Source of the DNA: a virus
IMG/VR virus record: IMGVR_UViG_3300042398_001156
Span: 1 to 64,000 of that record
DNA length: 64,000 bases
Reading direction: 5' to 3' (one strand)
A model generated the notes under the pieces. That model was not told the DNA's origin and did not search any database. It saw only the letters and a list, made by a program, of their open reading frames with translations. Of the stretch, positions 28,402 through 62,000 are shown one piece after another. How positions within the stretch are numbered: position 1 is the stretch's first letter; every line of letters begins with the position of its first letter. A program made the position numbers and the translations under genes.

Positions 28402-28786
28402 GTGCTCCTCCTTTCGTTACGGCTGGGTAAACCTGCAGCAAATCTTTTAACATCTCTGGTCGATCTGCATAGATCCGTTTACGCAGTAACTCTTTTGTTA
28501 ACTGGTACATCGGATTGTTTTCATTAAACATCACGTAGTAGTAGAACTCGGTGCCGTGTTTACAAACATACTTATCGTAATACAGATACTGCCCTGCAAC
28601 TTGGTAGAAGTCTCTGATCGTTAGTCTTCCATCTCTTTCAAACACATTGTGTTTATAAATCTGGTACAGTGTTGTCGCTTTAACCAAGGCTGTTTTACTT
28701 CTTATCGCATCTAACTCTTCTATGTTATGTTCAATCTTGTGGGCTTTGATATCAATAAACTTTGTAAAGAATTCTAGTGTTTTCAT
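28394..28786 (-). CDS. Hypothetical protein
   Basis: 130-aa coupled ORF. Confidence 0.65.
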   Translation of the reverse strand: MKTLEFFTKFIDIKAHKIEHNIEELDAIRSKTALVKATTLYQIYKHNVFERDGRLTIRDFYQVAGQYLYYDKYVCKHGTEFYYYVMFNENNPMYQLTKELLRKRIYADRPEMLKDLLQVYPAVTKGGAHD

Positions 28787-46577: not shown

Positions 46578-46844
46578 ATGTTTAAATTTGAATACAACGG
46601 AGTTATTTATCAAGCAAAGTCTATTGAAAAACTTCAACAAATTCTACAAAAAGCAGGTTTAAAAATTGATATGGAAACTTTATTACTTAATGAACAACAA
46701 GAAATTTTAAATGAAGTATTAAATGAACAATCAGAAATTGCTAATGAACAATCAGAAATTGCTAATGACGAACTTCAAGATATTATTAACGAAGAATATG
46801 CTGAACAATTAGCAGATAAAAAAGTTAATAACAAACTAAATTAA
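46578..46844 (+). CDS. Acidic hypothetical protein with NEQSEIA tandem duplication
   Basis: AAGGAG RBS; 21-nt direct repeat AATGAACAATCAGAAATTGCT x2. Confidence 0.7.
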   Translation: MFKFEYNGVIYQAKSIEKLQQILQKAGLKIDMETLLLNEQQEILNEVLNEQSEIANEQSEIANDELQDIINEEYAEQLADKKVNNKLN

Positions 46845-46874
46845 TGTTATCGTCTAGCCCACGTTACGGGCTTT

Positions 46875-46985
46875 CTAACTAAACTTTTTATTGGGGTAGT
46901 CGGGTAAGACAATCTATAAACCTTATGGGCTAAAGATTGTAACGTGGGTTCAACTCCCACCTACTCCACCAAAAAGTTTAGTTAG
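46875..46985. repeat. 15-bp perfect inverted repeat enclosing the tRNA-like RNA
   Basis: CTAACTAAACTTTTT (46875-46889) / AAAAAGTTTAGTTAG (46971-46985). Confidence 0.85.
46893..46971 (+). ncRNA. tRNA-like RNA with alanine identity (G3:U70, A73, CCA), resembling a tmRNA tRNA-like domain without mRNA domain
   Basis: Acceptor GGGGTAG/CTACTCC-A-CCA; T arm GTGGG-TTCAACT-CCCAC; stemless D loop ending in GAC; ACAATCT/AGATTGT helix with an 18-nt non-anticodon loop. Confidence 0.7.
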
Positions 46986-47043
46986 GTTAACTTGTTTTGT
47001 ACCAACAAGTTAATACATCCACCCCCTCTTTCTAAATGGTACT

Positions 47044-47090
47044 AAATAATACCAAGCATATAAGCTGATTACTTATATGCTGGTTTATTT
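47044..47090. terminator. Probable bidirectional terminator between convergent arms
   Basis: ACCA(A)GCATATAAG-N7-CTTATATGCTGGT stem with A/T-rich flanks. Confidence 0.65.
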
Positions 47091-50000
47091 ATTTTAATAT
47101 CATAGCTTGTGATTGCCTGTATCGTACGTACTGTCTCCATTGAATGTTCTTAACTAAACGATATGGGTTAGTAGTAGGTCTACGCATACGTCCAAACTTA
47201 TTAAACCAATCTCTGTATATGTTTTCATATTTAGCCCAACGGCCATTACGTCCGTAACGATATCTACGCGGTGTATACTTTTCATAATTTTGAACAGTAT
47301 AAACTAAAGGTATTGTAGTTACAGGAGTATAAGGTTGTCTAGAAACAAATGGTTTAAGTTTAGATTGTTGTAAATTTTCTCTCATAGGTAATGCATTAAG
47401 TACTCTAGTTATTGGTCCTGCAATAGCAAGCTGTCTAATGCTTTGCATAACATCTCTTGTTTCTAAAAATTTAGCAATACCTTTTAATAAAGGCCTTTGT
47501 CTTCCCACTAAAGCTGCACTAGGATCACTTAAAATATTTTGAACATCATATAAACCTAATCCAATACGCAACCCAAAATTTTTACTAACACGTATCCAAC
47601 CACTTTGCATTTCTAATAATTCAAATTCACTATACTGTCCTTCTTCATCTGCGTATTGACCATAAACACCATCGATAACGTCGCTTAATAAAACAACAAT
47701 ACGTGGGTCCGTAATACGATCAATCCAGTTCTTAATAGAACGAACAGGGAATGATAAGTATGGAATGTCAGCAAGTAATTGCATTTCTAAAGGACTACGT
47801 AAGCCATAATTAAAGAAACGTTTAAGAGAATTATTAACAGATTCTTGGAAATTGTAACCACGTAACTGTCTATCAAGTAAGTAACCTGCAATACGACCTA
47901 CGTTTTCTGTATCAGTATTTAAGTCTTCATAAAAAAACTTATAACCAGCTTTTGTAATTCTTAATAATTTACCAAACAAAGTTTTATTAGAAGTACCAGT
48001 ACGCTGTTCTTCTATCTCGTTATACACTTCTTTAAATGATCGTGTAGAAAAATCATTAGCATCTAAAGCTACGCGTTGACTTACAAGATCTCTTAAGTAA
48101 GCAAAACTTTCTTGACGATACGTATCAATCTGTGCATTCGTTTGCATAAAGGCACTGATTTCAAATAAGATATTTTTTAAGTCATTATAATCAGCATTAT
48201 AAATAGGGTTACCATCTACATCTTTATACTTAGTATATTTTTTCAAACGTTTTTCAATACGTGCCCTATAAATATTACCTTTATCTTCTCCAAATTTTAA
48301 GTTGTCATATAAAGTAAAGTATTCTGCAAAGCGTATATCTAATAAAAAGTTAACAGAATCACGTATGCTTGTACGATTTAATATAGCTAACACACCATCT
48401 TTATTTTTTAATTGGTAAGTAGTATCATTTGATACTTTACTTAAATCTTCAATAGACTTAACACCAACAACGTCTTCTAATAAAAATTTTAATACACTGT
48501 CTAAATCTTTTTGGTATACTAAAGCATTATTTTCTAAACGATATTTAATTCTATTTTTTAACTCATCTTGTTTTAATGATTGAGCACCTTCAACGTAACC
48601 ATTAATTCTATATCTAATATTTAAAAAGTTTTGTATAACATCTAATACTTGTTCTTTAGTTATTGCAGTTTTATTTAATAGTAATTTATTTAATTTATCA
48701 TATGATGATTTTACTTCTAATAAAGTAAGAATACGTTCTTCAGATATATCTTGATACATATTATACACATCAAAAGTTAAACCCATAATACGTATAATTT
48801 CTTTATTGTTTTTTAATGTGCCATATATATCAAAGTCTTTATAAATTTCACTGTATAACTGTAACCAAGTATCTAACATGTTACGCATAATAAAACCATA
48901 ATTAAAACGCATTAATAACTTTTCAAGATATTGTAACTGTCCTAACCAAGTTGATAATGGACCTGTAAATTTAAATGGTTTATAAGCAGTTTCATAAGAA
49001 GACATTAAGTTATCAATAGTAACAAGACCTATGTTAAGTACTTCACCTTGCGCTAGTTTATCTTCAAGCAATTTTAAAAGTCCTTTTAATTCTTTCCAAT
49101 TTTTAATGTTTATTTCTTTTAATGTAGGTGATATATCAGATCCTAAATCAATACCATTTAAATCAACGGATGTATATTCTTTACCTTTAAATATAATTTT
49201 ATTAATAGGTGTTTCAAAAGTATAAGACTTTTTAATAGGAGCATTTAATTCTTTAACATAATCAATAATTTCTTGGAAAGATTTAAATTTAATATCTTTA
49301 GAATGTTTACGTCTTCCCAAAAACTTATCCCATCTTGATTTATTTTCCCAAGTAGGATCATCTTTAACAAATAAATCACCAACTTTTTTAGCGAGTCCTT
49401 CAGTATTATAAGCATCTTTTTGTACAACTAAACGAATAAAGTCTCTATTAGATACTAAGTATTCATAGAATTCTTTTACATCATATACACGTTTAGTTGT
49501 TTTATTACCATTGCCATCTAGTAAAACAATATCTTTTTTAAAAATAGAAGCAGCGCTAATTAAAGGATAGATAAGTTTATCCATATTCATTATGTTAGTA
49601 TTTTTAAAACGATTGATATCAGTACTAGTTAATGTAGGTGTGTCACCAAAATATCTTGGAACACCATCTTTAATCATTTCAATTGTTTCACCTTCAGGTG
49701 TGTGTAATAAAAAGATACCGCTTGTAAAATTACGAGCAAATGATTTGCTTAATGCACCCATTTGAATTTCTCGTTTCTTTTCTAATAATTCTTTTAAACG
49801 ATTCTTAAAATACTTTAACGAATCTTTTAAATCTAATTTTTCTATTTGCTCAATAGATAAAATAATATCTTCTTGTTCTTTTTTTGATGTAACAAGTTTA
49901 CCCGCAAGTTGTTTTAATTTGCTTTGGTTAATATACAATTCATCGTTGTTTTCTTTTAAAGATATTTGCGCTGTGCGTATTTCTCTTACTAAATTTTCAA

Positions 50001-53000
50001 TTTTATAAAATGCTAATTCGTTACTAACGAGTCTACTTATTTGGTCGTTAACACTTTCTTTAGAACGGTTGTTATAAGATTTTTCCTTTTCATTTTTTAA
50101 TGATTTAAATTCTTTAAATGAATCTGTTATTTGTTCTATTAATTCTTCAATAGTAATAGGATCTTTTAGTACATCTAAATTTTCATCTTTTAAAAACTGA
50201 CTAACAGATTCAGTTTCTAAATCAGAAGCTTTCGAAATACTTGCAAGTGCTTCATTGTAATCATTCCCATAAGGATTACTTAATTTACTTGCAATAATAT
50301 GTAAGTTATCTTTTGTTGCACGTGTGCTTGTACTATTCTTAACTGTATTAATACGTTGAGATGTTTGCCCTTCTTCTCCAATTGTAACGTACTCTACATC
50401 AACTTCTTTAGATCCTAAAAAGAAATCTTTAGCGTGTTGATATTTAGATGGTAATAACTCTCTTATGTATATACGTTGTTTATAACCCAAAGATTCTATA
50501 ATAGTTTTATAAAGAAAATAACTGTCAGCTAATAAACGAATTTCTTTCATATCTAATTTAGCATTACTATCTGAAGTAACTGCATATCTTGCTTCTATTT
50601 CTTTAAAGGTTCCGTAAGCCATATTAAAGATACGGAATAAACGGAAGCCAACAATACGTAAAGAAACTAATCTTCCTAAAAAATTATTAACTGAATCTTG
50701 TTGGCCATTAATTGTAATAGTTTTATCTAAAGCTTTTTCTAAATCTTTTTCTTGATTAAATATTTTTGAAACTTCAACAATTATATTTAAGTACTGATTA
50801 TAAACTGAGTCTGGTACGTAAATGTCACCGAACATTTCTTTTTTAGAGTATTCATTTATTAATAAATTTGCGGCGTTTAATGCGCTTGCTTCTGATCTAT
50901 AGCTACCTTGTAATTGTGTACTTTTAATTTCAATACGTTTTTCTTTTAAAGCTTTTAACTCTTTATCTTCTATTAATAATTCTTCCATTTCAAAAGTATC
51001 TTTATCCATACCAATAGCAATTGCATTATCGTGGTCATCATCAACACCAAGTGTAATGTCTCTTATACCTACTTTGTTAGCACTTGCTAATACACGGTTT
51101 TTAAACGCACGTAAATATTCACTTACAAGCATACGAATAGGTCCATGTTTAGCAATACCAATAATGTTATTAGCTTCTATAGATTGAGTACCTATAGTAC
51201 CACGATCAACAATAGATTGATTTAAATAATTAGAGGCGTGTCTTTGTATTACGTTTTCTAATTTTTCTTTAGTTTTCTTTTTAGCTTTAGGATTTATAGC
51301 TTTTTTAAATTCACGAATAGCATCTTCGTTTCTTGAAAAATAAAATACATATAAGTATTGTTCATCTACTTCGTCAAATTTATCTACAACAATACCGTTC
51401 TTTTGATAGCCTTTATACTTTTTAATAAACTCTAAATAGTGTGGGTTTAATGAAGTTGCATTTTTATAGAACGTATCAAAGTGTCTTACTACAGCATCAA
51501 CTTTATTAGGACCACTCATTACTTCCGCAAATGAAGTTAATTCTTTAACAACTAAAGCAGCAGCATATAATTTTTTATATAAGAAAACAAGTACATCTTC
51601 TGCATCTTGTTTAAAATAATCTTTATGTTTAACTGCATCTACTGCATCTATATAAATTTTTGTTTCTGGGTTATACGCAACTTCTTTAAACCAACCGTTG
51701 TAAACTTGATCAGTAAAATTAGGTAACATTTGTTTAGCAAAATTATTAGCGTCTTTGTTAATTTTTTCTTTAAGATCTTCAAAACTTAATCCTGCTTCTT
51801 GATCTTTTAAAGCAGTTGAATATATTGTGTTTCTAAATGTACCCAATACTTTTTCAAATGTTAACGTTAATGAATCTACAGAAACAATATTTCTTAAAGG
51901 ATCTTTAAAACTATTCCAAACATTACCTGTTTGATCTCTATTAATATTTGGGAATATGCTTAACGTAGATTTAGAAGTTTGAATTTTTCTTACACCACCG
52001 AATATAAGAATACCGACTTTAGATCCTTGGAAACGTGTAACCGTTTCATTACGTCCAACACTGTATAATTTTCTAAAGAATACTTTTTTTATTATTTCAG
52101 CGTTAGCTTTTTCTTTTCGGTTTCTAATAATTTCATCTACGCCCGTTTTAATAATATATTCTTTATCTTTAACTGATAAATGTTTTTCTAAAACTTCACC
52201 ATTAACAACATTAAAATCTTTACGGCTAACATATTGTGTTAAATCATATTTTTTAGCATCAATAATTTTTTGGAATAAATAAGAACGTGCAGCAATATTG
52301 AAATATCTTTTATCTTCTAATGCTTTTTTAACTGCAGCTGGATCTTTGTAGTCTTTTAATTCAAAGTCAGGCGCTGTGTTTAAGTTAAAAAGTTTTCTTA
52401 TTGCAACGTTTAAAAATTCTTTTTGTTCAGTTTCAGTCCAGTCTAAAGTTTCTGGTATAACAAGATTGTTAATATCTTTTTGAATACCTTCGTATAAAGA
52501 ACCATATAATTCTGACCATTTATATGTTGTTCGTATTTTTTCAAAAACGGATTTACCTACAGAAGTATATTCATAACCAATGTTTTGAATACGTTTATTG
52601 GTTTTAACATCAGGTATTAATTCTTTACGTATTTTTTCTAAGTAGCCTTCTACATATCTTCTTTCTTTTTTAATTGGGTCCCAAGTAAAGTACCCTTCAT
52701 CGTAATAAGATTCTTTAGTGGCATCATCTCGATCAAAACGTCCATCAATAAATTGTTGTTGGCTTAAAGCAATCATACCAATAGTATCACCATCGTTATC
52801 AGCACCCATCATTTTGTACATATATGGGTTAGCTTCAATAGCTGCGTGGTCGTGGTAACCTATAATTTTTAAAGTAGGTGTAGAGTTAGCATCTTGGATA
52901 GGCCACCGTGCTGTTAGTACCCAACCAAATTTACGCCCTAACTTATTCTTATAAAAGCTAATAGTATTGTTTTTATTAACAGTGTATAAAATATTTTCAA

Positions 53001-56000
53001 CACCGTTAATACTGTCATTAGTCATGCCTTGTTTATGTAAATGAATAATAAATGCTTCTAGTTCTTCTTTGTTTTTTAAACTTATTTCGTAATTTAATCC
53101 TGTATCTTTGACATTAATACCACTAAAATTTTGTTTCTTTGCAGTGTAATTAAAAGCGTTAATAAGTTTTAACCAGGTGGTTTCGTCAAGTTTTTCTAGT
53201 TGTAACCAGTCTTTCTTTTTACTTAAAGTTTCCCAAGAGTCTCTAGAAGTTCGTAAATTACCTAAACTTAAATCAATGTTGGCAAGTAATTGTTGTCTAA
53301 CACCAGGGTGTTTACGATATAAATATGTATAGATAGCACCTGAGTCAGATGTTAAAAATTCTTGAGCACGATTCCGTGAAGCTAAATTAATTTCTTTTAA
53401 TTTAATATCAAACCATGATTTATCTTTTGCGTTGCTTTCAAGACGCATGTTAAAGAACATCATGTACTCTTGTGCGTTATCAATTAAAGGTGTTTCTGAT
53501 CTTGCTTTAATATTATCTACGGTTTTTTTAATATCGTAATTGCCATTACTTAATTTAATAGCATAAGCTTCAAGGAACTTTTCAATGCCATAGCTTTGAA
53601 TTTCTGAGTAAATACTTATTTCTTTTCTAAAGTCTTGATCTAATAAAACTTTAAAGTCTACACCTTTCATACCTAAAATTGCAACAAAAGAAGGCGTTAC
53701 AGGTACACCGCCTTCAACGTTACCTTTTATATCACGATTAAATATTGCTAACTCAGGGTTACTGTTAAGCCTTGCGTTTACAGACATCTTTTCTGCGGTG
53801 TGATCAGCATCAGCAATCACATAGATTTCACCGCGTTGTATGTCTAAACCTTTAAAGTTATCAATTACAACATCACCTTTGTCTGTAACACGTTCTATAG
53901 TAATGTCTTCTGTAATAACATCATAAGTAAGATCACTAAATATTTTTACTTTATTGACAGAGTCTTCGCCAAATAAATCTAATAGAATATTATAATAATC
54001 TTCACCAGAATCAAGGATAATTTTTCCTTCTTTAATAACAAATAAATCTTTTAATTCTTTGTCTTTAGACGCAAGTATACGTAAGGCACGTTCAGTTAAA
54101 CCATATTTTTTAATAAACGCTTTATTTAAAATAGCAGATGTTTTATTAGGATTATCTAATAATTCTTTACCACGTTTTTGTAACTCAGAATTAACTAAAT
54201 ATTTTCTAATACTATTCATCGTTTGTTCTAGTACAGCACCCCCAGCACCACGTTGTTGTACCGAAGATTTATTAGCAATAATACTAACACCAAACTTTTC
54301 ACGTATCCCATCTTCAAAACGAATAGCACCTTTAAATCCCCACATGCCTAACCAAATTTTCCAGCCTTCATTAGCACCTAAAATTTTAGCTACTTTTCTA
54401 TCTATAATAAGTGCGTCTTCATAAGCCGCAGGCATATCCATAAAGCCTATTTCTAAATTCATACCTATCTTGTGAAATATGTTTCGTTTATAAAATTCAA
54501 ATTGTTTTTCTGTCAATTGATTAGGAGTAAACGTATTAATAAGTGTGCCATTTTCTGCTCTTCGTTCTAATAAATCAGTTAATAAATCACCCGTAGCAGG
54601 GTTATCTTTAATAGCTTGTTCAAAATATAATTCTAAAAGCTCTTCAAATTTTACAGATCTATTTAACTTGTCTTCAAAACTGTAGATGTTATTAATTAAA
54701 CCATACGGTGTATACTCTAAATATTGTTTATTGTAAGGTAAAATAATACGAGCAGGATTTGTGTTAAGTGTATGTGGCATATCTACGTTAGTAGGTAAAT
54801 ATATAGGTACAGATTTACCGGAACTTCCTTCTGCAGATTTTTCTAAATCAAGCAAGACTCCAATCTTGCTGGCACCCTCACTGGTCCAATCTATAACCAT
54901 GTTTGCACTATAAGTAGAAGGTACTAATAACAAGTATTTACTTGGGTCATTGCTTACAAATCTAGAAAGTGTACGATCTGCTAATCCTTGGTAAATTGTT
55001 TTAGTGTTATTTATTTTTTCTTTTTTACGTGCATAGTTATGAACATCTAAAAATCTAAAGAATCTATTTTTTAGTACTTGAGTCATGTTAATAACTTCTA
55101 AAACAGTATCAGGTATAGCATCATCAAAGACTTCGTCTTTTAAAAACTTTTCTGTAAGAACCTTACCACCTCTAACACCTTCATCATTTAATTCAAATAA
55201 GCCAAGCTTTCTGTATTTTTCATAATGTGATAACACACGTTTAATACTTTCAAAGCTGTGGTCTACACCATCTTCTAAATACACAATATTTTGTGGTAGT
55301 TTAGTATGACCAAGTTTTACTTGACCCTTAGCATCTTTGTAATTAAAGAAACGTTTTAACCAATCGTTAATATCTTCATCTTCTTTAGGTCCTTGTAGTT
55401 TAATTGTTTTAACTTCTAATGTTTTACCAGCTTCAATATAAGTGTAATTAAATTCAAAGGATACTTTACCACCTTTTAAACTAAACTTATAACTATTAAC
55501 AACGCCATTAAAATTATCAAATAAATTAACGATAAAAAAGTTTTCTGTAGGTCTTCTTATTAAAGCAACATCTTCTTTAATAACCAGTGCTTTACGATCT
55601 ACACCTTCATGTACATCTTTATACACACGGGTTACGTTAGGAATGTTTAATTGTTGAATAAACTCTAACCCTTCTTTTTGATTAGCTAAATTTTCTAATG
55701 AATCTAAACGTTCTTCTTTTGCTAGGTTTTCAATGTTTACTTTACCGCCATTTAAAATAGTATAAATGTGATCAAATTCCATTTCTTTTTTAATTGCATC
55801 AAGTTTCTTAACTCTGCTTAAAACTTCTACAAACTTATTAGTAACTGCTTCTGTGTTAACTTCTAAATCAGTTTGTTTTCTGTCAAATTTTAAACGGTTT
55901 AATAAATCAATATTGTTATTAACGTAATCTAATTCATCTTTAATAGCTAATGCAACAAGTGTACGCATGTTTAAAGTATCTATTTTTCCAACAAGATTAT

Positions 56001-59000
56001 CTTTTTCTTTTAATAAACTAAGTAATTTTGTCACACCTTTATTTTTACTAAACAATTCTACTAAGTTAGCAAATCGTTTGTCTTGAATAATATTTGTGTT
56101 TTCTTTTAATTTTAATATATTAAAAAATTTATTTAAGATATTAATTAAATCAGCATCATCAATTTTTAAATCAGGAATTTTTTTAAAGTCAGCACCTAGT
56201 ACTTCAGGTCCAATGTTATTCCAAGTCTCTACTAATTCTTGAAGCTTAACAATTGCTAAAGCTTTAAACTCTTCAGTCTTTTGATTTATTATATCTTCTA
56301 TTTTTTTATCAAACGTAGAACTTGCTGCAACTTTACCGTTGTTTAAAAGAGTAATCATAGTAGTAAGTTCTTGACTACGTTTATTATAAGCGTCTAATAT
56401 TTTATTTTTTTCTGCAGCATCCTTGATGCTTATAATAGTAGAATCAATAAATGTAGCTAAAAGTTTTTTAACTTCAGTAGATTCAATATCTATTTTTCCA
56501 TTAGGACTTTCTTCAATTATGCTCATTAACTTTTCTAAAGCTTGCACACTGTTGTTTAATTCTAATTGTAAGTTATCTAATTCTATTTTTAATAGACTAT
56601 AGTTTGTTATATTCGTAGAACTATAACCATATTTATCTTCATTAAGTTTTTCTTTTAGAACTTTATTAATTCTATACGTTGTATTTTTTGTAATCTCTTG
56701 TAACTTTTTAGAGGTTTTTCTAAGAATTTCAAAAAGAGTTTCTTTTTTAACAACACCATCTTCTACTTTCTTTGTTAAATCTTCAATTGTTTTTTCTACT
56801 TCTTTATATTCTTTTAATGTTTTTGCTTGGTCAGTAGCTAACTCTGTTAGTTTTTCTTTATGAGACTTTCTACCAGAAGTTTCAATAAAAGCAATAAATC
56901 TAAGTACTTGTTGTACTTGTAAATCAATTGAAGTATTTGCTTCGTTATAATTAAAGTCTGTTACTTGATCATCAGCGATGTTTAATTCTTCTTTAACAGC
57001 ATCTGTAATTAACTGTCTTACGCTTGTTAATTTAGGATCACCAGCAATACTATCTACACCTTGTTGTATCTGTGCAGTAAATTCTTCTTCCATTATTTTT
57101 AATAACTCATCTGTGTAAGCTAAAATTTTAGCATCTTCTCGTATGTTATGTCTTAACATCCAACCTTCATTAAAATATTTAAATATAGCATTTCTAATAT
57201 CTAAACGTTTAATAGGATCTTTTTCATTAATGTAGTCAAGTACTAAACTTTTTATAGTATTATATTGTGATTTTTCTCCTGTAAATAAACTTACTTTACG
57301 ACCTTGATTTGTTACTATACTTAAACGACTTTCAACATTTTTAATAACATCTTGTATTAAAATGTTTTCTATTTCACGATCAAACTTACCTATAGCTGTT
57401 AAGTCAGCTTTGTTTAAAGGTATACCTTTTTTTAATTTTTGATTAATTCTAGTTATTTCTTTTTTATTAGCAGCAATTAAACGTGCAGCATCTCCACGTG
57501 TAACAGCGTCGTTAACACTAGCGTACTCCATGCGTTCTCTTATAGCTTTAGGATCGTTATCTCTTATTAATTGGTAATATAAGTTTACTTTTAAAGTACT
57601 AGCAAGACGTTGAATAAATTGATTGTAGTTAGGAAAGTCAAAATCTTCACCGTTATGTGCAATAATAGGTACATTTTTAGGCGCTGCGTTTACTTCGTTT
57701 ATAAAAAGACGGGTAACTTCTATGTCATTACGCTGACCTATTACATACTTAATAGTAGTATCTATACGTTTATCTAATTCATCTTTTATTGTTTTATTTA
57801 AAAGATTATAGTACTCATCTTGATCTGTATTTCTCCAAACTTTTTTAGTTTTAGTTGGGTCAGCATTAACCCAAGCTTTAAAGCCTTCCATTTCTTTTAC
57901 ATACATACGTCTTTGTTGTTCATAAAACCGTGTTAATTCAGGAGACAATTTAGTTTCTACTTTACCGTTTACAAGTTCTTCTGTTTTACCTTCAATAAAT
58001 ATTTGATTTGTCATAAATTGATTTAACACATCAAAAGATAATTTACCTTTAACGTTTTTAAATTTTAATATAGTTAATTGATATGGAATTTTATTACCGT
58101 TACTATCTGTTACAGTTTCCATGTCTAAAATAATAAACTCTTCAGGTAAGTTTTGACCTGCTTTTTTCATCTGGGCCATATAATTAAAAGCAGTAATAAC
58201 ACCATCTGTTATACCATTATGTAGCCCTATATTTTTTTCACCGTCAGTATTAGTATCTTTAATTAGTTGTACTAATTTATCATAACCACCTATGTAATAT
58301 TGACCGGCATCTTTAATAATTTTTTCAATAACCTCAACACTAGTCTGTTCAACATTAATTTTATTTAAGTTTCTATACGTATCTAAATTACTATTACCAT
58401 AAGGCTTTTCTTCTTTTCTAGCACTTATAAGGTTATCATAACGATTCTGTATACCCTTCTTATCGCTTTCAGCTTTTTCTAATAACTCATTTAATTTAGC
58501 AATACGTGCAGGTACTTCTGTAGAGTAATCTTTTAATGCTTCTTTTTCTTTTTTTAAAGCAACAATTTTATCTGTTAGTTCTTTTCTTTGCGCAATTAAA
58601 TCATCGTGTTCTTTTTTATATAAAGTAGTATCATTTGATAATATGTAAGACGCAAGATACTCATCTGATATTTCTTTATTTGTTTCAGCACTTACTTTTT
58701 TTGCAACACGTTTTAACACAGTAGTAGGATCTTGATTACCTTCTGTTTTTAAAACATTAATGACATTATTACTATTTTTAATATTAACTTTATTTTTTGT
58801 TATACGACTTTTTAATTCTATTAACGCTTTTATAGTCTGTTCTAAATCATAATTCTTTTGATTAGTAATTAAATTATTTATAGTTATTTCAAATTCACCT
58901 TTAAGTTCTTTTAATTGGTCTTTACTATATTTATCTTTAGTAGTTTCTACAACAGTAGATTTATTAATTGCGTCTTCTACTTTTTTAAGTTCATCTAATA

Positions 59001-62000
59001 TATATTCTTTTTGTTTAAATGAATTAATATCCATGTTGTCAAAAGGATATGATTTTAATTCTAATAATCTTTCTAATACTAATAAAACTTCTCTTGGTAT
59101 TTCTATAGTTGTAACGTTACTTCCTGTACCAACAACTTCAAAACCTTCTTGTATAGAAGGTTGAGCTACGCCTCTGTTTGCTTTTTTTCTTTTTTCTAAT
59201 TCTTTTTCGTCCGATTTAAAATCAGATTGTTTTACAAAATAAAGTTTTTCTGAGCTAACATAAGTTATTGGTATTTGTAAAGATGTTGACCAGCTACCAG
59301 TTGGTTCATCTCCACCACGTACATATAATCTTTCTGTACTACTATTAACTATGTTTTTTATTTTTGTTATAAACGTATTTAATTGATTTCTTACATAAGG
59401 ATTTTCAATTAAAAATTTAAGTATATCATCGTTTAATAAATTTCTTTTTTTCCAATCAATCTTACTGTATTCTTCTTCTTCTTTATTTAATGCTTCTCTA
59501 AACTTATCAAATAGTGGATGACTTTTTCCAAAGGCATCAAACTCTGCTTGGGTTTTGTCAGTGTTTGGTATTTCACGGCCACTATCTACCCAGTCTTTTT
59601 TTATTTGTTGATAAAAACTTTCTCTTAAATCTGAAGCTTCTTCTAATTTTTCAAACATTAAAACAATTTCTTTTTCGTAAGAAGTTATTTTACTTTCTAT
59701 TTCTTTTAAACCTTCTTCTTTTCCAAGTTTTTCTTTAACTTGTAAAACATTTAAGCTACTTTTTATTTTAAAAGAACTTAAATAATTGCTGTCTTCTTTA
59801 TTAATAGTAGCAATTAATTGTTTAGTTAGCGTTAATAATCCTTGAAGTGTAAATTTCTTTAAGTAAATAAGTTTGTTTAATTCTGTTTTGTAACGTTCTT
59901 TTGTTATATCTTTTTTATTAATTCCTAACTTATGTAAATCATAATTAATTTTAAGTTGCGCGTATGTTGCCCACAAAAATTTACGATATGAAAGCTCATT
60001 AGCTCTATCATGTTTTTTAAATGTAAATGTTTCTTTTTTATTTTTAACATCTTGTATAGCTTTATCAATAACAGTTTCATAATTATCAAAATCTTCCAGT
60101 CCAAAAGTATTAAAGTATTCATCTTGTGCTTGTGCTAAATAATTTTCTGCTTTATTTAAGTATTCACTTTGTGATTTTAAAAGAATATCCGTACTTTTTT
60201 TATCTAGTGTAAGTGAATCTTTTAAATCTTTTTGTTCTTTTGCAGCAATTTCTTTAGCAGCACCTTTAAAACTTCCATAGTAAGCTCTTTGAATTTTATT
60301 AACATGATATCTAGCGATAGCTAACTGTCTTCCTTTACGACTTAAACCATCTTCTGTATCACTAATAATTTTATCACCGTCTGTAAAATATTTATTAATG
60401 TTATCAATTCTATTTTCATTATTTTTAATAATGGATTCATAACCTTTTCTATAAGTACCCCAGGTCTTTTTTGAAACTTTAGAATCTTTTGGATCAACTC
60501 CATTAATTAAAGTTTTTTGAAGTGTATTAATTGTATTAATTTTATCTTCTGCATTTTTAATAAAGTTATTATAATCTTCGACTGTTTGTATATTAATACC
60601 TAATTCAATTAATGATTTAACATTATTTTCAAAAGTATCTTTTTTATATGTATTTCTAATTTTTGCAAATGCTTTATATTCTTTTGTAGATAACCACGTT
60701 TTTGCTTCAATTAAATCATCTCTTATTTTATCGTACAGTTCAAAAAACTTAACAGACTTTTTATTTTTAAATTTGTTTATTTTATCTTGGTTTTCTTTTT
60801 GAGCCTTTGTTAATAATTTTTCATTGAACTCTTCGTATTCTTTAATAAGCGAAGGTGTATTTTCATACACAGCAATTAAAATTTTTTCTTTTCTGTCTTT
60901 TGCTTCTTTATCAATAGTAGTTATTTCATTATTTAAAATAACTTGAGATGATTCTAAAATGTTTATTTGTGTTAATAATTCTAATTCTTTTTTATTTATA
61001 GCAGCAAGATCTGTATTACTAAAATTAAACATAGATTTTAAACTATCTAATCTATTTGTTAATGTTACAGCTTCTTCTTTTAATTTATTGACAGTATTAG
61101 TAATTAATTCCCAGCTTACAATTGTAGGTAATTTTTTAAAATCATAATCTTTATCTCCAGCTACACCTTCTTCTATAGTATCCCATAACAGTCTTTCCCC
61201 TTTATCAAGATTTAATTGACTGCTTAAAATTTTTGTAAGGTCATTAATATTTTGAATACGTTTAGTTACTTCACTTCTTTCCTTAGGAGTCATTGCTTCT
61301 AAAACAGCTTTAGGAAAAATAATATTAATAGCTTTTCTAATTGATCCTGCTGTTTCAATTTGATTAGCAAGGCTAGTTAACTTTGAAATATTATAACGTT
61401 GCTGTGCGTCTGATATAGTTTTTATTTGATCTTCAAGATAACGCAATCTAGTTTGTGCTTGTGCTTTTGTTTTATTGTCAAACTTATTGATAAGAATATA
61501 ACCCATAACTGCTTGTACAAACTCTGGGGTTACATCAAGTAAATGACGACGAGAATTAAAATAATTAACTATGTCTTCTACTTGTTGGTTTATACGTTTT
61601 AATTGTTCTGGATCATTTATAGAATCAACATATTTTTTAAAATCATTTTTATAAATAGTAATAAATTCTTTACGTTGAGATATATTATTAATAGCAATAG
61701 CTATTTCTAAAAAACGAACAAAGTTAATATCTTCTACTTCTGGTTTAATTAACTTTAATAGATTTGTATATCGTTGCATTAATGCCGTGTAATCAATATT
61801 TCTAGAAGGAACTTCATCAATATTTTTAGCGTACTGTTCACTTGTGTAATGAAAACTAATATCTCCTAAAGCTTGTTCAATTATTTTAGCAACAGTTGCA
61901 TTATAGTTTGGATTTGAATTAGGTATAAATATAACTTTAAAAGTATCACGCATTTGTTGTAATATAATTTTGCTAATATTATTAGGTGTAGTTAAAATAT

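What the first reader, a model, noticed from the sequence alone, without database searches (positions are those of the whole stretch)
46875..46985. A mini-tmRNA-like RNA: alanine-identity tRNA mimic with no anticodon and no tag ORF, held in a 15-bp inverted repeat
Seen: 79 nt with a 7-bp acceptor stem containing G3:U70, A73 and encoded CCA, a canonical T arm (TTCAACT loop), a stemless D loop ending GAC, a 3-nt variable linker, and a 7-bp helix capped by an 18-nt loop in place of an anticodon arm. A perfect 15-bp inverted repeat flanks it, and a second hairpin follows at 46987-47013. Established: G3:U70 is the AlaRS determinant; a stemless D loop, short variable loop and helix 2 define the SmpB-binding tRNA-like domain of tmRNA; tag-less tmRNAs occur in some mitochondria. 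Inference: it could be an SmpB/AlaRS decoy that blocks trans-translation, rescue ribosomes without tagging phage proteins, or act as a decoy for anticodon nucleases. The inverted repeat may form a processing stem.
Basis: partly seen in the sequence, partly recalled or inferred. Interest (0 to 1): 0.8.

Follow-up and report, generated by a model that had tools for sequence, protein, structure and literature searches.

The report
Phage tag-less mini-tmRNA gene
An uncultured freshwater phage carries a real, strongly conserved 79-base gene that keeps only the alanine-accepting, tRNA-like end of the bacterial ribosome-rescue RNA (tmRNA). One such phage RNA (mycobacteriophage DS6A) is already published, so this is a new member of a known kind, and it probably interferes with or short-cuts the host's rescue-and-tag system.

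Summary
Window 46893-46971(+) folds as described: a 7-bp acceptor stem with G3:U70, A73 and encoded CCA; a stemless D loop ending in GAC; a 7-bp helix 2 with an 18-nt cap; and a T arm. A perfect 15-bp inverted repeat flanks it.

ARAGORN calls nothing. Rfam tmRNA scores 38.5 bits (cut-off 47) with the whole coding and pseudoknot body deleted. A covariance model built from 11 unrelated phage copies scores the window at 58.6 bits. It scores the published 'TLD-only' tmRNA of mycobacteriophage DS6A at 60.6 bits, so the two belong to one class.

Pattern scans found 52 distinct such minis in viral contigs:
- Helix 2 covaries strongly.
- G3:U70 and A73 are present in 31 of 31 copies found without requiring them.
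- In bacterial genomes the same pattern gave full acceptor pairing only at the chance rate.

No integrase or SmpB gene lies in this contig. Within this lineage the core is invariant, and the two flanking hairpins and the inverted-repeat stem all show compensatory changes, which fits a processed precursor.

The function, competition with host tmRNA for SmpB, AlaRS and EF-Tu, is inferred from published work on DS6A. No RNA data exist for this phage.

This scan has already reported the class on other DNA (at least 17 genomes), including this element's 85-nt sister.

The parts
46856..46872 (+). Upstream hairpin (5-bp GC-rich stem, 7-nt loop, then TTTC). It lies 11 nt after the stop codon of the last replication-module ORF. 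It is probably a weak terminator or a processing element of the precursor.
   Evidence: The sequence is and the fold. The hairpin is conserved in relatives whose neighbouring coding sequence has diverged. Its closing pair changes A:U to G:U to G:C across the lineage.
46875..46889 (+). 5' arm of the 15-bp inverted repeat (precursor stem)
   Evidence: It is perfectly complementary to 46971-46985 and forms in the fold. One position covaries, U:A to C:G, in 7 of 9 aligned lineage members. The repeat is found only in this lineage among 40 distinct minis.
46893..46971 (+). Mini-tmRNA gene (tRNA-like domain only), 79 nt. It comprises the acceptor stem with G3:U70, a D loop ending in GAC, helix 2 with an 18-nt cap, an AAC linker, the T arm, A73 and CCA.
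   Evidence: Scores: Rfam tmRNA 38.5 bits with 326 model positions deleted; Rfam tRNA 31.4 bits; ARAGORN finds nothing; class model R1 58.6 bits. Identical copies occur in L052 and L053.
46909..46940 (+). Helix 2 (7 bp) with an 18-nt cap. The cap holds an AAACC motif and a small inner hairpin (CC-UUAU-GG).
   Evidence: Helix 2, anchored at the C of GAC, is kept across 40 distinct minis with 38 different strand sequences. Five of its 6 modelled pairs show changes on both sides. An AAAGCC/AAACC motif recurs after helix 2 in many minis; a similar GAAGC/GAAAC motif was seen by eye in the 5' parts of full-length bacterial tmRNAs (not quantified). In sister contigs the whole distal part is replaced by another hairpin (type B, 85 nt) while pairing is kept.
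46971..46985 (+). 3' arm of the inverted repeat. Its first base is A76 of the CCA end.
46987..47013 (+). Downstream hairpin (10-bp stem, 7-nt loop) with no U tract. It is part of the conserved cassette.
   Evidence: The fold is. The stem is conserved while the loop varies freely. One pair changes G:C to A:U, with a G:U intermediate.
47055..47081 (.). Bidirectional terminator-like hairpin shared with the convergent giant gene. It is the likely end of the primary transcript that carries the mini.
   Evidence: It is called as terminator-like on both strands. The giant ORF ends at 47089.

Best explanation
This is a phage gene for a 'TLD-only' (tag-less) tmRNA. It is homologous to the tRNA-like domain of bacterial ssrA, and the pseudoknots and the tag-coding region have been replaced by a short capped helix 2.

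Inferred pathway:
1. It is transcribed at the end of the replication module as part of a structured precursor: hairpin 1, then a 15-bp stem enclosing the mini, then hairpin 2.
2. It is cut out by host enzymes, with RNase P at G1 and probably a double-strand-specific cut in the inverted-repeat stem followed by 3' trimming to the encoded CCA.
3. It is charged with alanine by host AlaRS through G3:U70 and A73.
4. It is bound by host SmpB and EF-Tu.
5. It then competes with host tmRNA. It ties up SmpB and may enter stalled ribosomes, but it brings neither a degradation tag nor a stop codon. Normal trans-translation, meaning the tagging of stalled products that include phage proteins, is therefore reduced.

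What is shown here: the identity and class membership of the RNA, its conservation, and the conserved flanking helices. What is inferred: expression, processing, charging, SmpB binding and the effect on the host.
For: Identity:
- The Rfam tmRNA model aligns both ends and deletes 326 internal positions (38.5 bits).
- Model R1, built from 11 minis of other phages, scores the window at 58.6 bits. Ordinary tRNA genes in the same loci, which lie among the lower-scoring matches, scored about 24-31 bits.
- R1 scores the published DS6A TLD-only tmRNA (JN698994 28478-28560) at 60.6 bits.
- The D-loop consensus (GGnTTCGAC) and the GGAC linker match full-length bacterial tmRNAs. A similar AAAGCC/AAACC-type motif after helix 2 was also seen by eye in those tmRNAs (not quantified).

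The class is real:
- There are 40 distinct minis with 7 of 7 acceptor pairs in viral contigs.
- The uninterrupted helix-2 run averages 5.6 pairs, against 2.3 in cross-sequence controls.
- On 41 members, 96% of cells are paired against about 55% when the partner is slid, and 5 of 6 helix-2 pairs change on both sides.
- The same pattern in bacterial genomes gave 7 of 7 acceptor pairing in only 7 of the first 120 hits. I calculated the chance rate at about 5%.

Selection for charging: in a scan that did not require the acceptor sequence or CCA, 31 of 31 minis with a helix 2 had G3:U70 and A73, while acceptor pairs 5 and 6 vary.

Dependence on the host: no SmpB gene in this contig or in 49 other mini-bearing virus records.

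Lineage conservation: the TLD core is invariant in 13 contigs whose neighbouring coding sequence and hairpin loops have diverged, and hairpin 1, the inverted-repeat stem and hairpin 2 show compensatory changes.

tRNA-like maturation is plausible: 8 of 59 mini loci have tRNA genes within 500 nt, nearly all on the mini's strand, and one sits inside a 21-tRNA array.

Literature:
- A DS6A-like TLD strongly inhibits E. coli tmRNA, 'perhaps by titrating SmpB' (PMC4131195 and PMC11915505, both citing Mao et al. 2009).
- Peptidyl transfer to a TLD-only tmRNA occurs in vitro (PMC3895274, citing Shimizu and Ueda 2006).
- G19 of the GAC motif is needed for SmpB binding (PMC8363625).
Against: - No RNA-level evidence was available for expression, processing, alanylation or SmpB binding of this molecule.
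- The score is below Rfam's tmRNA cut-off (38.5 against 47).
- The D loop reads TAAGAC where most tmRNAs and minis read TTCGAC. The bases equivalent to E. coli U17 and C18, which are part of the SmpB Trp122 pocket, are both A. The linker is one base longer (TAAC instead of GAC). Host SmpB binding is therefore assumed, not shown.
- GAC, the T arm and, in the first scan, G3:U70 and CCA were required by my search patterns, so their constancy in those sets is not independent evidence.
- Strict conservation of the alanine identity elements is not needed for simple SmpB titration. Inhibition was reported 'whether or not chargeable', so titration alone may not be the whole mechanism.
- The host is unknown.
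Confidence: 0.6

Rival explanations
1. Tag-less ribosome rescuer. Ala-mini with SmpB and EF-Tu enters stalled ribosomes and takes over the nascent chain. The chain is then released untagged, either by drop-off and peptidyl-tRNA hydrolase or by an ArfB-type factor. Ribosomes are freed without phage proteins being marked for proteolysis.
For: - G3:U70 and A73 are kept in 31 of 31 minis found without requiring them. That argues that charging itself is selected, which pure SmpB titration would not need.
- Peptidyl transfer to a TLD-only tmRNA occurs in vitro (PMC3895274).
- Helix 2 plus its cap is no longer than the long variable arm of a class II tRNA, so transit through the ribosome is sterically conceivable (my inference).
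- Tag-less mitochondrial tmRNAs co-occur with SmpB and are thought to help with incomplete mRNAs (PMC11915505).
Against: - There is no resume codon and no stop codon, so the ribosome would hold peptidyl-mini with an empty A site. That is again a substrate for host tmRNA.
- No release factor or ArfB-like gene was looked for or seen next to the gene.
- The only experimental report on a sister molecule is of inhibition.
Confidence: 0.22
2. Decoy or trigger-blocker for host defence proteins that recognise tmRNA or tRNA-like RNA, for example SmpB-like domains of CoCoNuT-type systems, or RNases acting on tmRNA. On this reading it does not act on trans-translation.
For: - Defence systems with SmpB-like OB folds predicted to bind tmRNA exist (PMC11090510).
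- Phages exploit tRNA and tmRNA fragments against type III CRISPR accessory nucleases (PMC11662646).
- The minis occur mostly in phages without an integrase.
Against: - This is purely circumstantial: no defence or anti-defence gene is linked to the mini here.
- Conservation of the AlaRS identity elements is not explained.
- An anticodon-nuclease decoy is excluded in practice, because there is no anticodon loop.
Confidence: 0.08
3. An aberrant or intron-bearing tRNA-Ala, or a decaying pseudo-tRNA.
For: The Rfam tRNA model reaches 31.4 bits, just above its cut-off of 29. The element has the alanine identity elements and a canonical T arm.
Against: - ARAGORN finds no tRNA here or in any of 40 minis.
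- There is no D stem, no 5-bp stem with a 7-nt anticodon loop, and no anticodon.
- The tmRNA model scores higher than the tRNA model.
- The D-loop and linker motifs are those of tmRNA.
- Ordinary tRNA genes in the same loci, which lie among the lower-scoring R1 matches, scored about 24-31 bits against 58.6 here.
- The core is invariant across diverged contigs, which rules out decay.
Confidence: 0.03
4. A leftover of integration into the host ssrA gene: an attP core or a captured 3' fragment of ssrA.
For: Phages and genomic islands often integrate at the 3' end of ssrA and carry that segment (PMC11915505 and PMC9004378). The 3' half resembles tmRNA 3' ends.
Against: - A complete complementary 5' acceptor strand, a D loop and a helix-2 5' strand are present, and an attP core would not need them.
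- No tyrosine or serine recombinase lies in the 75.9-kb contig, and only 3 of 49 mini-bearing records have a tyrosine integrase.
- The 28-nt 3' end has no exact copy in 185,579 species genomes.
Confidence: 0.02

Closest known systems
TLD-only ('standard, no CDS') tmRNA of Mycobacterium phage DS6A (tmRNA Website tmID 11587; Mao et al. 2009, as cited in PMC4131195 and PMC11915505)
   Same: Both are phage-encoded and about 80 nt. Both have an acceptor stem with G3:U70 and A73, a stemless D loop ending in GAC, helix 2 closed by a short cap, a T arm, and no tag frame or pseudoknots. They score alike with the class model R1 (60.6 against 58.6 bits). Neither is annotated or found by ARAGORN.
   Different: - DS6A is a temperate, high-GC mycobacteriophage with an integrase. 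This phage is low-GC, from fresh water, and has no integrase in 75.9 kb.
- DS6A ends in CUA rather than CCA.
- This copy has a TAAGAC D loop and a TAAC linker.
- This copy sits inside a lineage-specific cassette of a 15-bp stem and two hairpins.
Standard one-piece bacterial tmRNA (ssrA, Rfam RF00023)
   Same: The 5' and 3' ends align to the model. They share the acceptor stem with G3:U70, A73 and CCA, the GG...GAC D loop, a helix 2 that starts at the C of GAC, the T arm GGGUUCAACUCCC, and possibly the AAACC-type motif after helix 2 (seen by eye).
   Different: About 326 model positions are absent: pseudoknots PK1-PK4, the resume codon, the tag reading frame, the stop codon and helix 5. It cannot direct tagging or termination. 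It scores 38.5 bits against a cut-off of 47.
Tag-less mitochondrial tmRNA of jakobids and others (Rfam RF02544; Jacob et al. 2004, as cited in PMC11915505)
   Same: It is reduced to the tRNA-like domain, has no tag frame, and is presumed to depend on SmpB.
   Different: The mitochondrial genes are usually circularly permuted and organellar, and work with a co-evolved imported SmpB. Here the gene is colinear, viral, and would act on a host that has its own complete tmRNA. It was not scored separately against RF02544.
tRNA-Ala
   Same: G3:U70, A73, CCA and a canonical T arm. It just passes the Rfam tRNA cut-off.
   Different: There is no D stem, no anticodon arm and no anticodon. ARAGORN is negative.
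Engineered TLD fragments used in biochemistry and crystallography (Shimizu and Ueda 2006, cited in PMC3895274; the truncated tmRNA-SmpB-EF-Tu ribosome crystal, cited in PMC8363625)
   Same: Same design: acceptor and T arm, D loop, and a short capped helix 2. Such fragments bind SmpB and EF-Tu and accept the peptide on the ribosome.
   Different: Those are laboratory constructs. This is a natural, conserved phage gene.

Membership tests
TLD-only (CDS-less) phage tmRNA, DS6A type | Complete tRNA-like domain: 7-bp acceptor stem with G3:U70, A73, T arm, and a stemless D loop ending in GAC | tested here: met
   Sequence and fold. R1 scores it at 58.6 bits, in the same range as DS6A at 60.6 bits.
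TLD-only (CDS-less) phage tmRNA, DS6A type | Helix 2 closed by a short cap, with no pseudoknots and no tag reading frame | tested here: met
   A 7-bp helix with an 18-nt loop. The Rfam tmRNA alignment deletes 326 internal positions. The only in-loop stop (UAA) is not conserved across the class.
TLD-only (CDS-less) phage tmRNA, DS6A type | Encoded in a phage genome | tested here: met
   It lies in an IMG/VR virus record of 75.9 kb. Neighbouring genes are primase, helicase, DNA polymerase, exonuclease and a Sak4-like protein.
TLD-only (CDS-less) phage tmRNA, DS6A type | Inhibits host tmRNA or binds SmpB (the functional property reported for the DS6A-like molecule) | not testable with these tools
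   Known only from the literature. No RNA run holds this DNA.
Standard tmRNA (RF00023) | Score at or above the curated cut-off of 47 bits | tested here: not met
   38.5 bits
Standard tmRNA (RF00023) | mRNA-like domain with a resume codon, a tag frame and a stop codon, plus pseudoknots | tested here: not met
   Only 18 nt lie between the helix-2 strands, and ARAGORN finds no tmRNA.
Standard tmRNA (RF00023) | tRNA-like domain with alanine identity elements and the SmpB-contact motif GAC (G19) | tested here: met
   G19 is required for SmpB binding according to PMC8363625.
tRNA (RF00005), tRNA-Ala | Cloverleaf with a D stem and a 5-bp anticodon stem carrying a 7-nt loop and an anticodon | tested here: not met
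   ARAGORN finds none. The fold shows no D stem and an 18-nt cap. The Rfam tRNA score of 31.4 bits, just above the cut-off of 29, rests on the acceptor and T arm.
Two-piece (permuted) tmRNA | Acceptor piece and coding piece encoded in permuted order | tested here: not met
   The permuted tmRNA model gives only 12.3 bits against a cut-off of 47. The gene is colinear, with 5' and 3' acceptor strands in normal order.
Mitochondrial tag-less tmRNA (RF02544) | Match to the organellar model and an organellar setting | not tested
   Overlapping matches within the same Rfam clan were suppressed. The setting is viral, not organellar.
attP or ssrA 3' fragment of an integrating element | Only the 3' part of ssrA is present, next to an integrase | tested here: not met
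   The full 5' half is present. No integrase lies in the contig. The 3' 28-mer has no exact copy in 185,579 species genomes.

The most novel reading that the evidence does not exclude
Mini-tmRNAs are a widespread, essentially unannotated phage RNA class, not a DS6A oddity.

Their strictly conserved alanine identity would mean that they act on the ribosome as charged SmpB-dependent tRNA mimics. They would then either plug or rescue stalled ribosomes without tagging, for instance ribosomes stalled by host RNA-cleaving defences.

In this lineage the RNA would be made as a 'caged' precursor. Its CCA end is locked in a 15-bp stem and freed by a double-strand RNase, so that its activity is timed during infection.
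Probability: 0.3. Interest if true: 0.65.

Novelty: new member of a known kind. Interest (0 to 1): 0.45.

Why it matters
Trans-translation is the main bacterial ribosome-rescue and quality-control pathway. How phages deal with it is poorly known.

A small, easily synthesised natural RNA that binds SmpB, AlaRS and EF-Tu but carries no tag is a ready-made probe or inhibitor of that pathway. Its recurrence in many unrelated phages suggests a general phage strategy.

Practically, these genes are missed by ARAGORN and fall below Rfam's tmRNA cut-off, so phage annotations, including the DS6A GenBank record, omit them. The class model built here shows that they can be detected specifically.

For this window, the added value is the conserved precursor cassette and the natural 'swap' of the distal helix 2. 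Together they mark which parts of the molecule are under constraint.

Tried and rejected
- blastn of 2 kb around the element against 50,697 phage records gave no match.
- The exact 28-nt 3' end was absent from genome contigs, so no host could be named from it.
- Host by DNA polymerase similarity gave only about 28% identity to Paenibacillus and Bacillus phages. This is not informative enough.
- Sequencing runs: 24 DNA holders from lake or freshwater metagenomes, and no RNA holder listed. I therefore laid no reads.
- Mao et al. 2009 is not held, so I cite it only through PMC4131195 and PMC11915505.
- MAFFT alignments of all minis (A1, A2) misaligned the 5' acceptor and shifted the helix-2 register. 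I used anchored parsing in Python and a model-fitted alignment (A6) instead.
- A one- or two-codon tag in the loop (GGC-UAA or AUG-GGC-UAA at 46924-46933) was considered and rejected. The loop is too short to reach the decoding centre from helix 2, and no stop or frame is conserved across the class or in the type-B sister.
- A flanking inverted repeat as a class feature was rejected. It occurs only in this lineage.
- A metagenome search for a full-length tmRNA sharing this 5' 18-mer, which would have shown a recent deletion, returned only minis and one chance hit.
- Literature searches for mini-, truncated- or tagless-tmRNA in phages returned nothing beyond DS6A.

Full report
**1. Observation**

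- Acceptor stem: 46893-46899 pairs 7 of 7 with 46961-46967, and the third pair is G:U.
- A73 is 46968 and CCA is 46969-46971.
- An 11-nt loop with no stem (46900-46910) ends in GAC.
- 46909-46915 pairs with 46934-46940 (7 bp) around an 18-nt loop.
- AAC links to a 5-bp T stem with loop TTCAACT.
- CTAACTAAACTTTTT (46875-46889) is the exact reverse complement of 46971-46985. The 3' arm of the repeat therefore begins with the A of CCA.

The minimum-free-energy fold of the 79 nt is this structure (-26.8 kcal/mol, z -2.76). Folding 46840-47030 adds the 15-bp stem and two outer hairpins, 46856-46872 and 46987-47013 (z -6.43, none of 200 shuffles as stable).

**2. What standard tools say**

- ARAGORN finds no tRNA or tmRNA in the window or in the remaining 11.9 kb of the contig.
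- At gathering thresholds, Rfam reports only a marginal tRNA hit (31.4 bits, cut-off 29).
- In a local search the tmRNA model wins (38.5 bits, cut-off 47). It aligns model positions 1-374 end to end with 326 internal positions deleted. In other words, both halves of the tRNA-like domain (TLD) are present and the body is missing.
- The same search 'rings' below the cut-off in archaeal control genomes, so this hit alone would not separate a TLD from a tRNA.

**3. A class, not a singleton**

A pattern that required only GGGG, GAC, the T arm and CTCCACCA within about 110 nt hit 61 viral contigs.
- Forty-five loci, holding 40 distinct sequences of 73-103 nt, have a fully paired acceptor stem.
- None of them is called by ARAGORN.
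- In nearly all of them, a helix starts at the C of GAC and ends just before a GAC, AAC or TAAC linker.

That helix was not part of the search pattern.
- Its uninterrupted length averages 5.6 pairs, against 2.3 when the 5' strand of one sequence is paired with the 3' strand of another.
- It reaches 6 or more pairs in 55% of sequences, against 2.8% in the control.
- It uses 38 different strand sequences.

The same pattern in one-genome-per-species bacterial contigs gave 7 of 7 acceptor pairing in only 7 of the first 120 hits. I calculated the chance rate at about 5%, and those hits look like 3' parts of full-length ssrA. The architecture is therefore specific to viral sequence.

**4. Class model and the published precedent**

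I built model R1 from 11 minis of other phages (alignment A4).
- The window scores 58.6 bits (E about 1e-10). The lowest-scoring matches in the same loci, about 24-31 bits, include ordinary tRNA genes.
- On the 41-member alignment A6, 96% of cells are paired, against 52-61% when partners are slid. Five of 6 helix-2 pairs, two acceptor pairs and one T-stem pair show changes on both sides. This alignment is fitted to the model, and several columns were fixed by my pattern.

The literature already holds one such molecule.
- Hudson, Lau and Williams list 'Mycobacterium phage DS6A (TLD only)'. [quoted passage not shown] 2009).
- The 2025 tmRNA database paper repeats this. It counts only 9 'standard, no CDS' sequences and 79 phage sequences in all (PMC11915505).
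- R1 finds the DS6A gene at JN698994 28478-28560, unannotated between gp33 and gp34, at 60.6 bits.

The window's element and DS6A's therefore belong to one class.

**5. Derived from tmRNA, not from tRNA-Ala**

I extracted full-length bacterial tmRNAs with ARAGORN for comparison. Besides the acceptor and T arm, these share with the minis the D-loop consensus GGnTTCGAC, a helix 2 that begins at the C of GAC, and the GGAC linker. By eye, they also show a GAAGC/GAAAC motif a few bases after helix 2a.

The window has AAACC at 46918-46922 in the matching place. Its D loop is the less common TAAGAC variant, which is shared by about a quarter of the minis. Its linker is TAAC.

**6. Are the alanine determinants selected?**

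The first scan required G3:U70, so I repeated it with a pattern that fixed only TTCGAC and the T arm. Of the 31 hits with a paired acceptor and a helix 2 of 4 or more pairs, all 31 have G3:U70 and A73. Twelve new ones lack an encoded CCA. Every candidate without G3:U70 also lacked helix 2, so it was not a mini.

A wobble pair is thus kept everywhere while neighbouring acceptor pairs change. This argues for selection on charging by AlaRS. A caveat from an earlier finding of this scan, which I did not test, is that some minis are recent deletions of full-length phage tmRNAs. In that case part of the constancy could be inheritance.

**7. Context**

The contig is an IMG/VR virus record of 75.9 kb, about 71% complete. 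It recurs in lake and freshwater metagenomes.
- The gene lies at the end of a plus-strand replication module of primase, helicase, family A DNA polymerase, exonuclease, a Sak4-like protein and two small ORFs.
- It is convergent with a giant minus-strand ORF that ends at 47089, and the two share a bidirectional terminator at 47055-47081.
- No tyrosine or serine recombinase and no SmpB gene lie in the contig.
- Among 49 other mini-bearing virus records, 3 have a tyrosine integrase and none has SmpB. Many of these records are fragments.
- Eight of 59 mini loci have tRNA genes within 500 nt, nearly all on the mini's strand, and one sits inside a 21-tRNA array. This fits tRNA-like maturation.
- In this phage the mini is the only tRNA-like gene.

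An attP or ssrA-fragment origin is not tenable. The whole 5' half is present, there is no integrase, and the 3' 28-mer has no exact copy in 185,579 species genomes.

**8. The lineage and its cassette**

Three viral and ten metagenome contigs carry the same TLD core. The upstream coding sequence is barely alignable among them, yet hairpin 1, the inverted repeat, the mini and the stem of hairpin 2 are almost invariant.

Compensatory changes occur in all three flanking helices:
- Hairpin 1: A:U to G:U to G:C.
- Inverted-repeat stem: U:A to C:G.
- Hairpin 2: G:C to G:U to A:U, with a freely varying loop.

The distal part of helix 2 exists in two unrelated versions. Type A has 79 nt and is the version found in this window. 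Type B has 85 nt, with a different 5-bp stem and an inner 5-bp hairpin. Both sit on an otherwise identical core.

This shows that the acceptor stem, D loop, proximal helix 2, linker and T arm are constrained, while the cap is free. The inverted repeat is absent from the other 39 distinct minis, so it is a lineage-specific solution. The most plausible role is a precursor stem that is cut on both sides. Its 3' arm sequesters A76, so the RNA cannot be charged until it is processed. This last point is inference.

**9. Mechanism**

Shown here: homology to the tmRNA TLD, class membership with DS6A, strong structural conservation, conserved alanine determinants, and the absence of a phage SmpB.

From the literature:
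- TLD fragments bind SmpB and EF-Tu and accept the peptide on the ribosome (PMC3895274, PMC8363625).
- A DS6A-like TLD inhibits E. coli tmRNA.

Inferred: the mini is processed, alanylated and bound by host SmpB and EF-Tu. It competes with host tmRNA, which lowers the tagging of stalled products.

Two points keep the tag-less-rescue variant alive. Charging seems to be selected although titration would not need it. The short helix 2 would let the molecule pass through the ribosome like a class II tRNA. Against that variant, there is no stop codon, so release would need another factor.

**10. Verdict**

The reading 'mini-tmRNA' is supported, and the functional options are open but narrowed.

The element is a new member of a known kind. 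This scan has already reported the class on other DNA, in at least 17 genomes, including this element's 85-nt sister and its inverted repeat. What is specific here is the conserved precursor cassette and the natural cap swap.

Noticed in passing
window 47089-63999 (minus strand): A giant ORF of at least 5,636 aa runs off the window's end. Earlier first-reader notes on this genome describe RNA-polymerase-like and exonuclease-like motifs in it. It converges on the mini-tmRNA cassette.
   Followed up: no
window 47014-47035: A pyrimidine-rich block (ATACATCC-ACCCCCTCTTTC) directly after hairpin 2 is largely conserved in relatives whose sequence further downstream differs. Its role is unknown.
   Followed up: no
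L294 (JN698994) 28478-28560: The published DS6A TLD-only tmRNA is not annotated in the GenBank record, where all 97 features are CDS. The same phage encodes an RtcB-like RNA ligase (gp76), and tmRNA is reported to be a frequent RtcB substrate (PMC11090510).
   Followed up: partly
L197:2458-2538 (+): A mini-tmRNA without an encoded CCA sits in the middle of a same-strand array of 21 tRNA genes, directly between tRNA-Arg and tRNA-Lys.
   Followed up: partly
L012:7121-7223 and L029:2013-2115: A 103-nt long form has a paired acceptor stem, but two extra hairpins take the place of the short cap. It scores only 39.9 bits with R1.
   Followed up: no
L017, L296-L300, L304-L306: Sister contigs carry an 85-nt version in which the distal helix 2 and cap are replaced wholesale by an unrelated stem and inner hairpin, on an identical TLD core. 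The inverted-repeat variants (U:A or C:G) do not track the cap type: L052 has the type-A cap with the C:G repeat. This suggests recombination within the cassette.
   Followed up: partly
L022 and L047: These two viral loci carry many tRNA-like matches to R1 at 24-40 bits (large tRNA arrays) next to a tmRNA-like 3' end.
   Followed up: no
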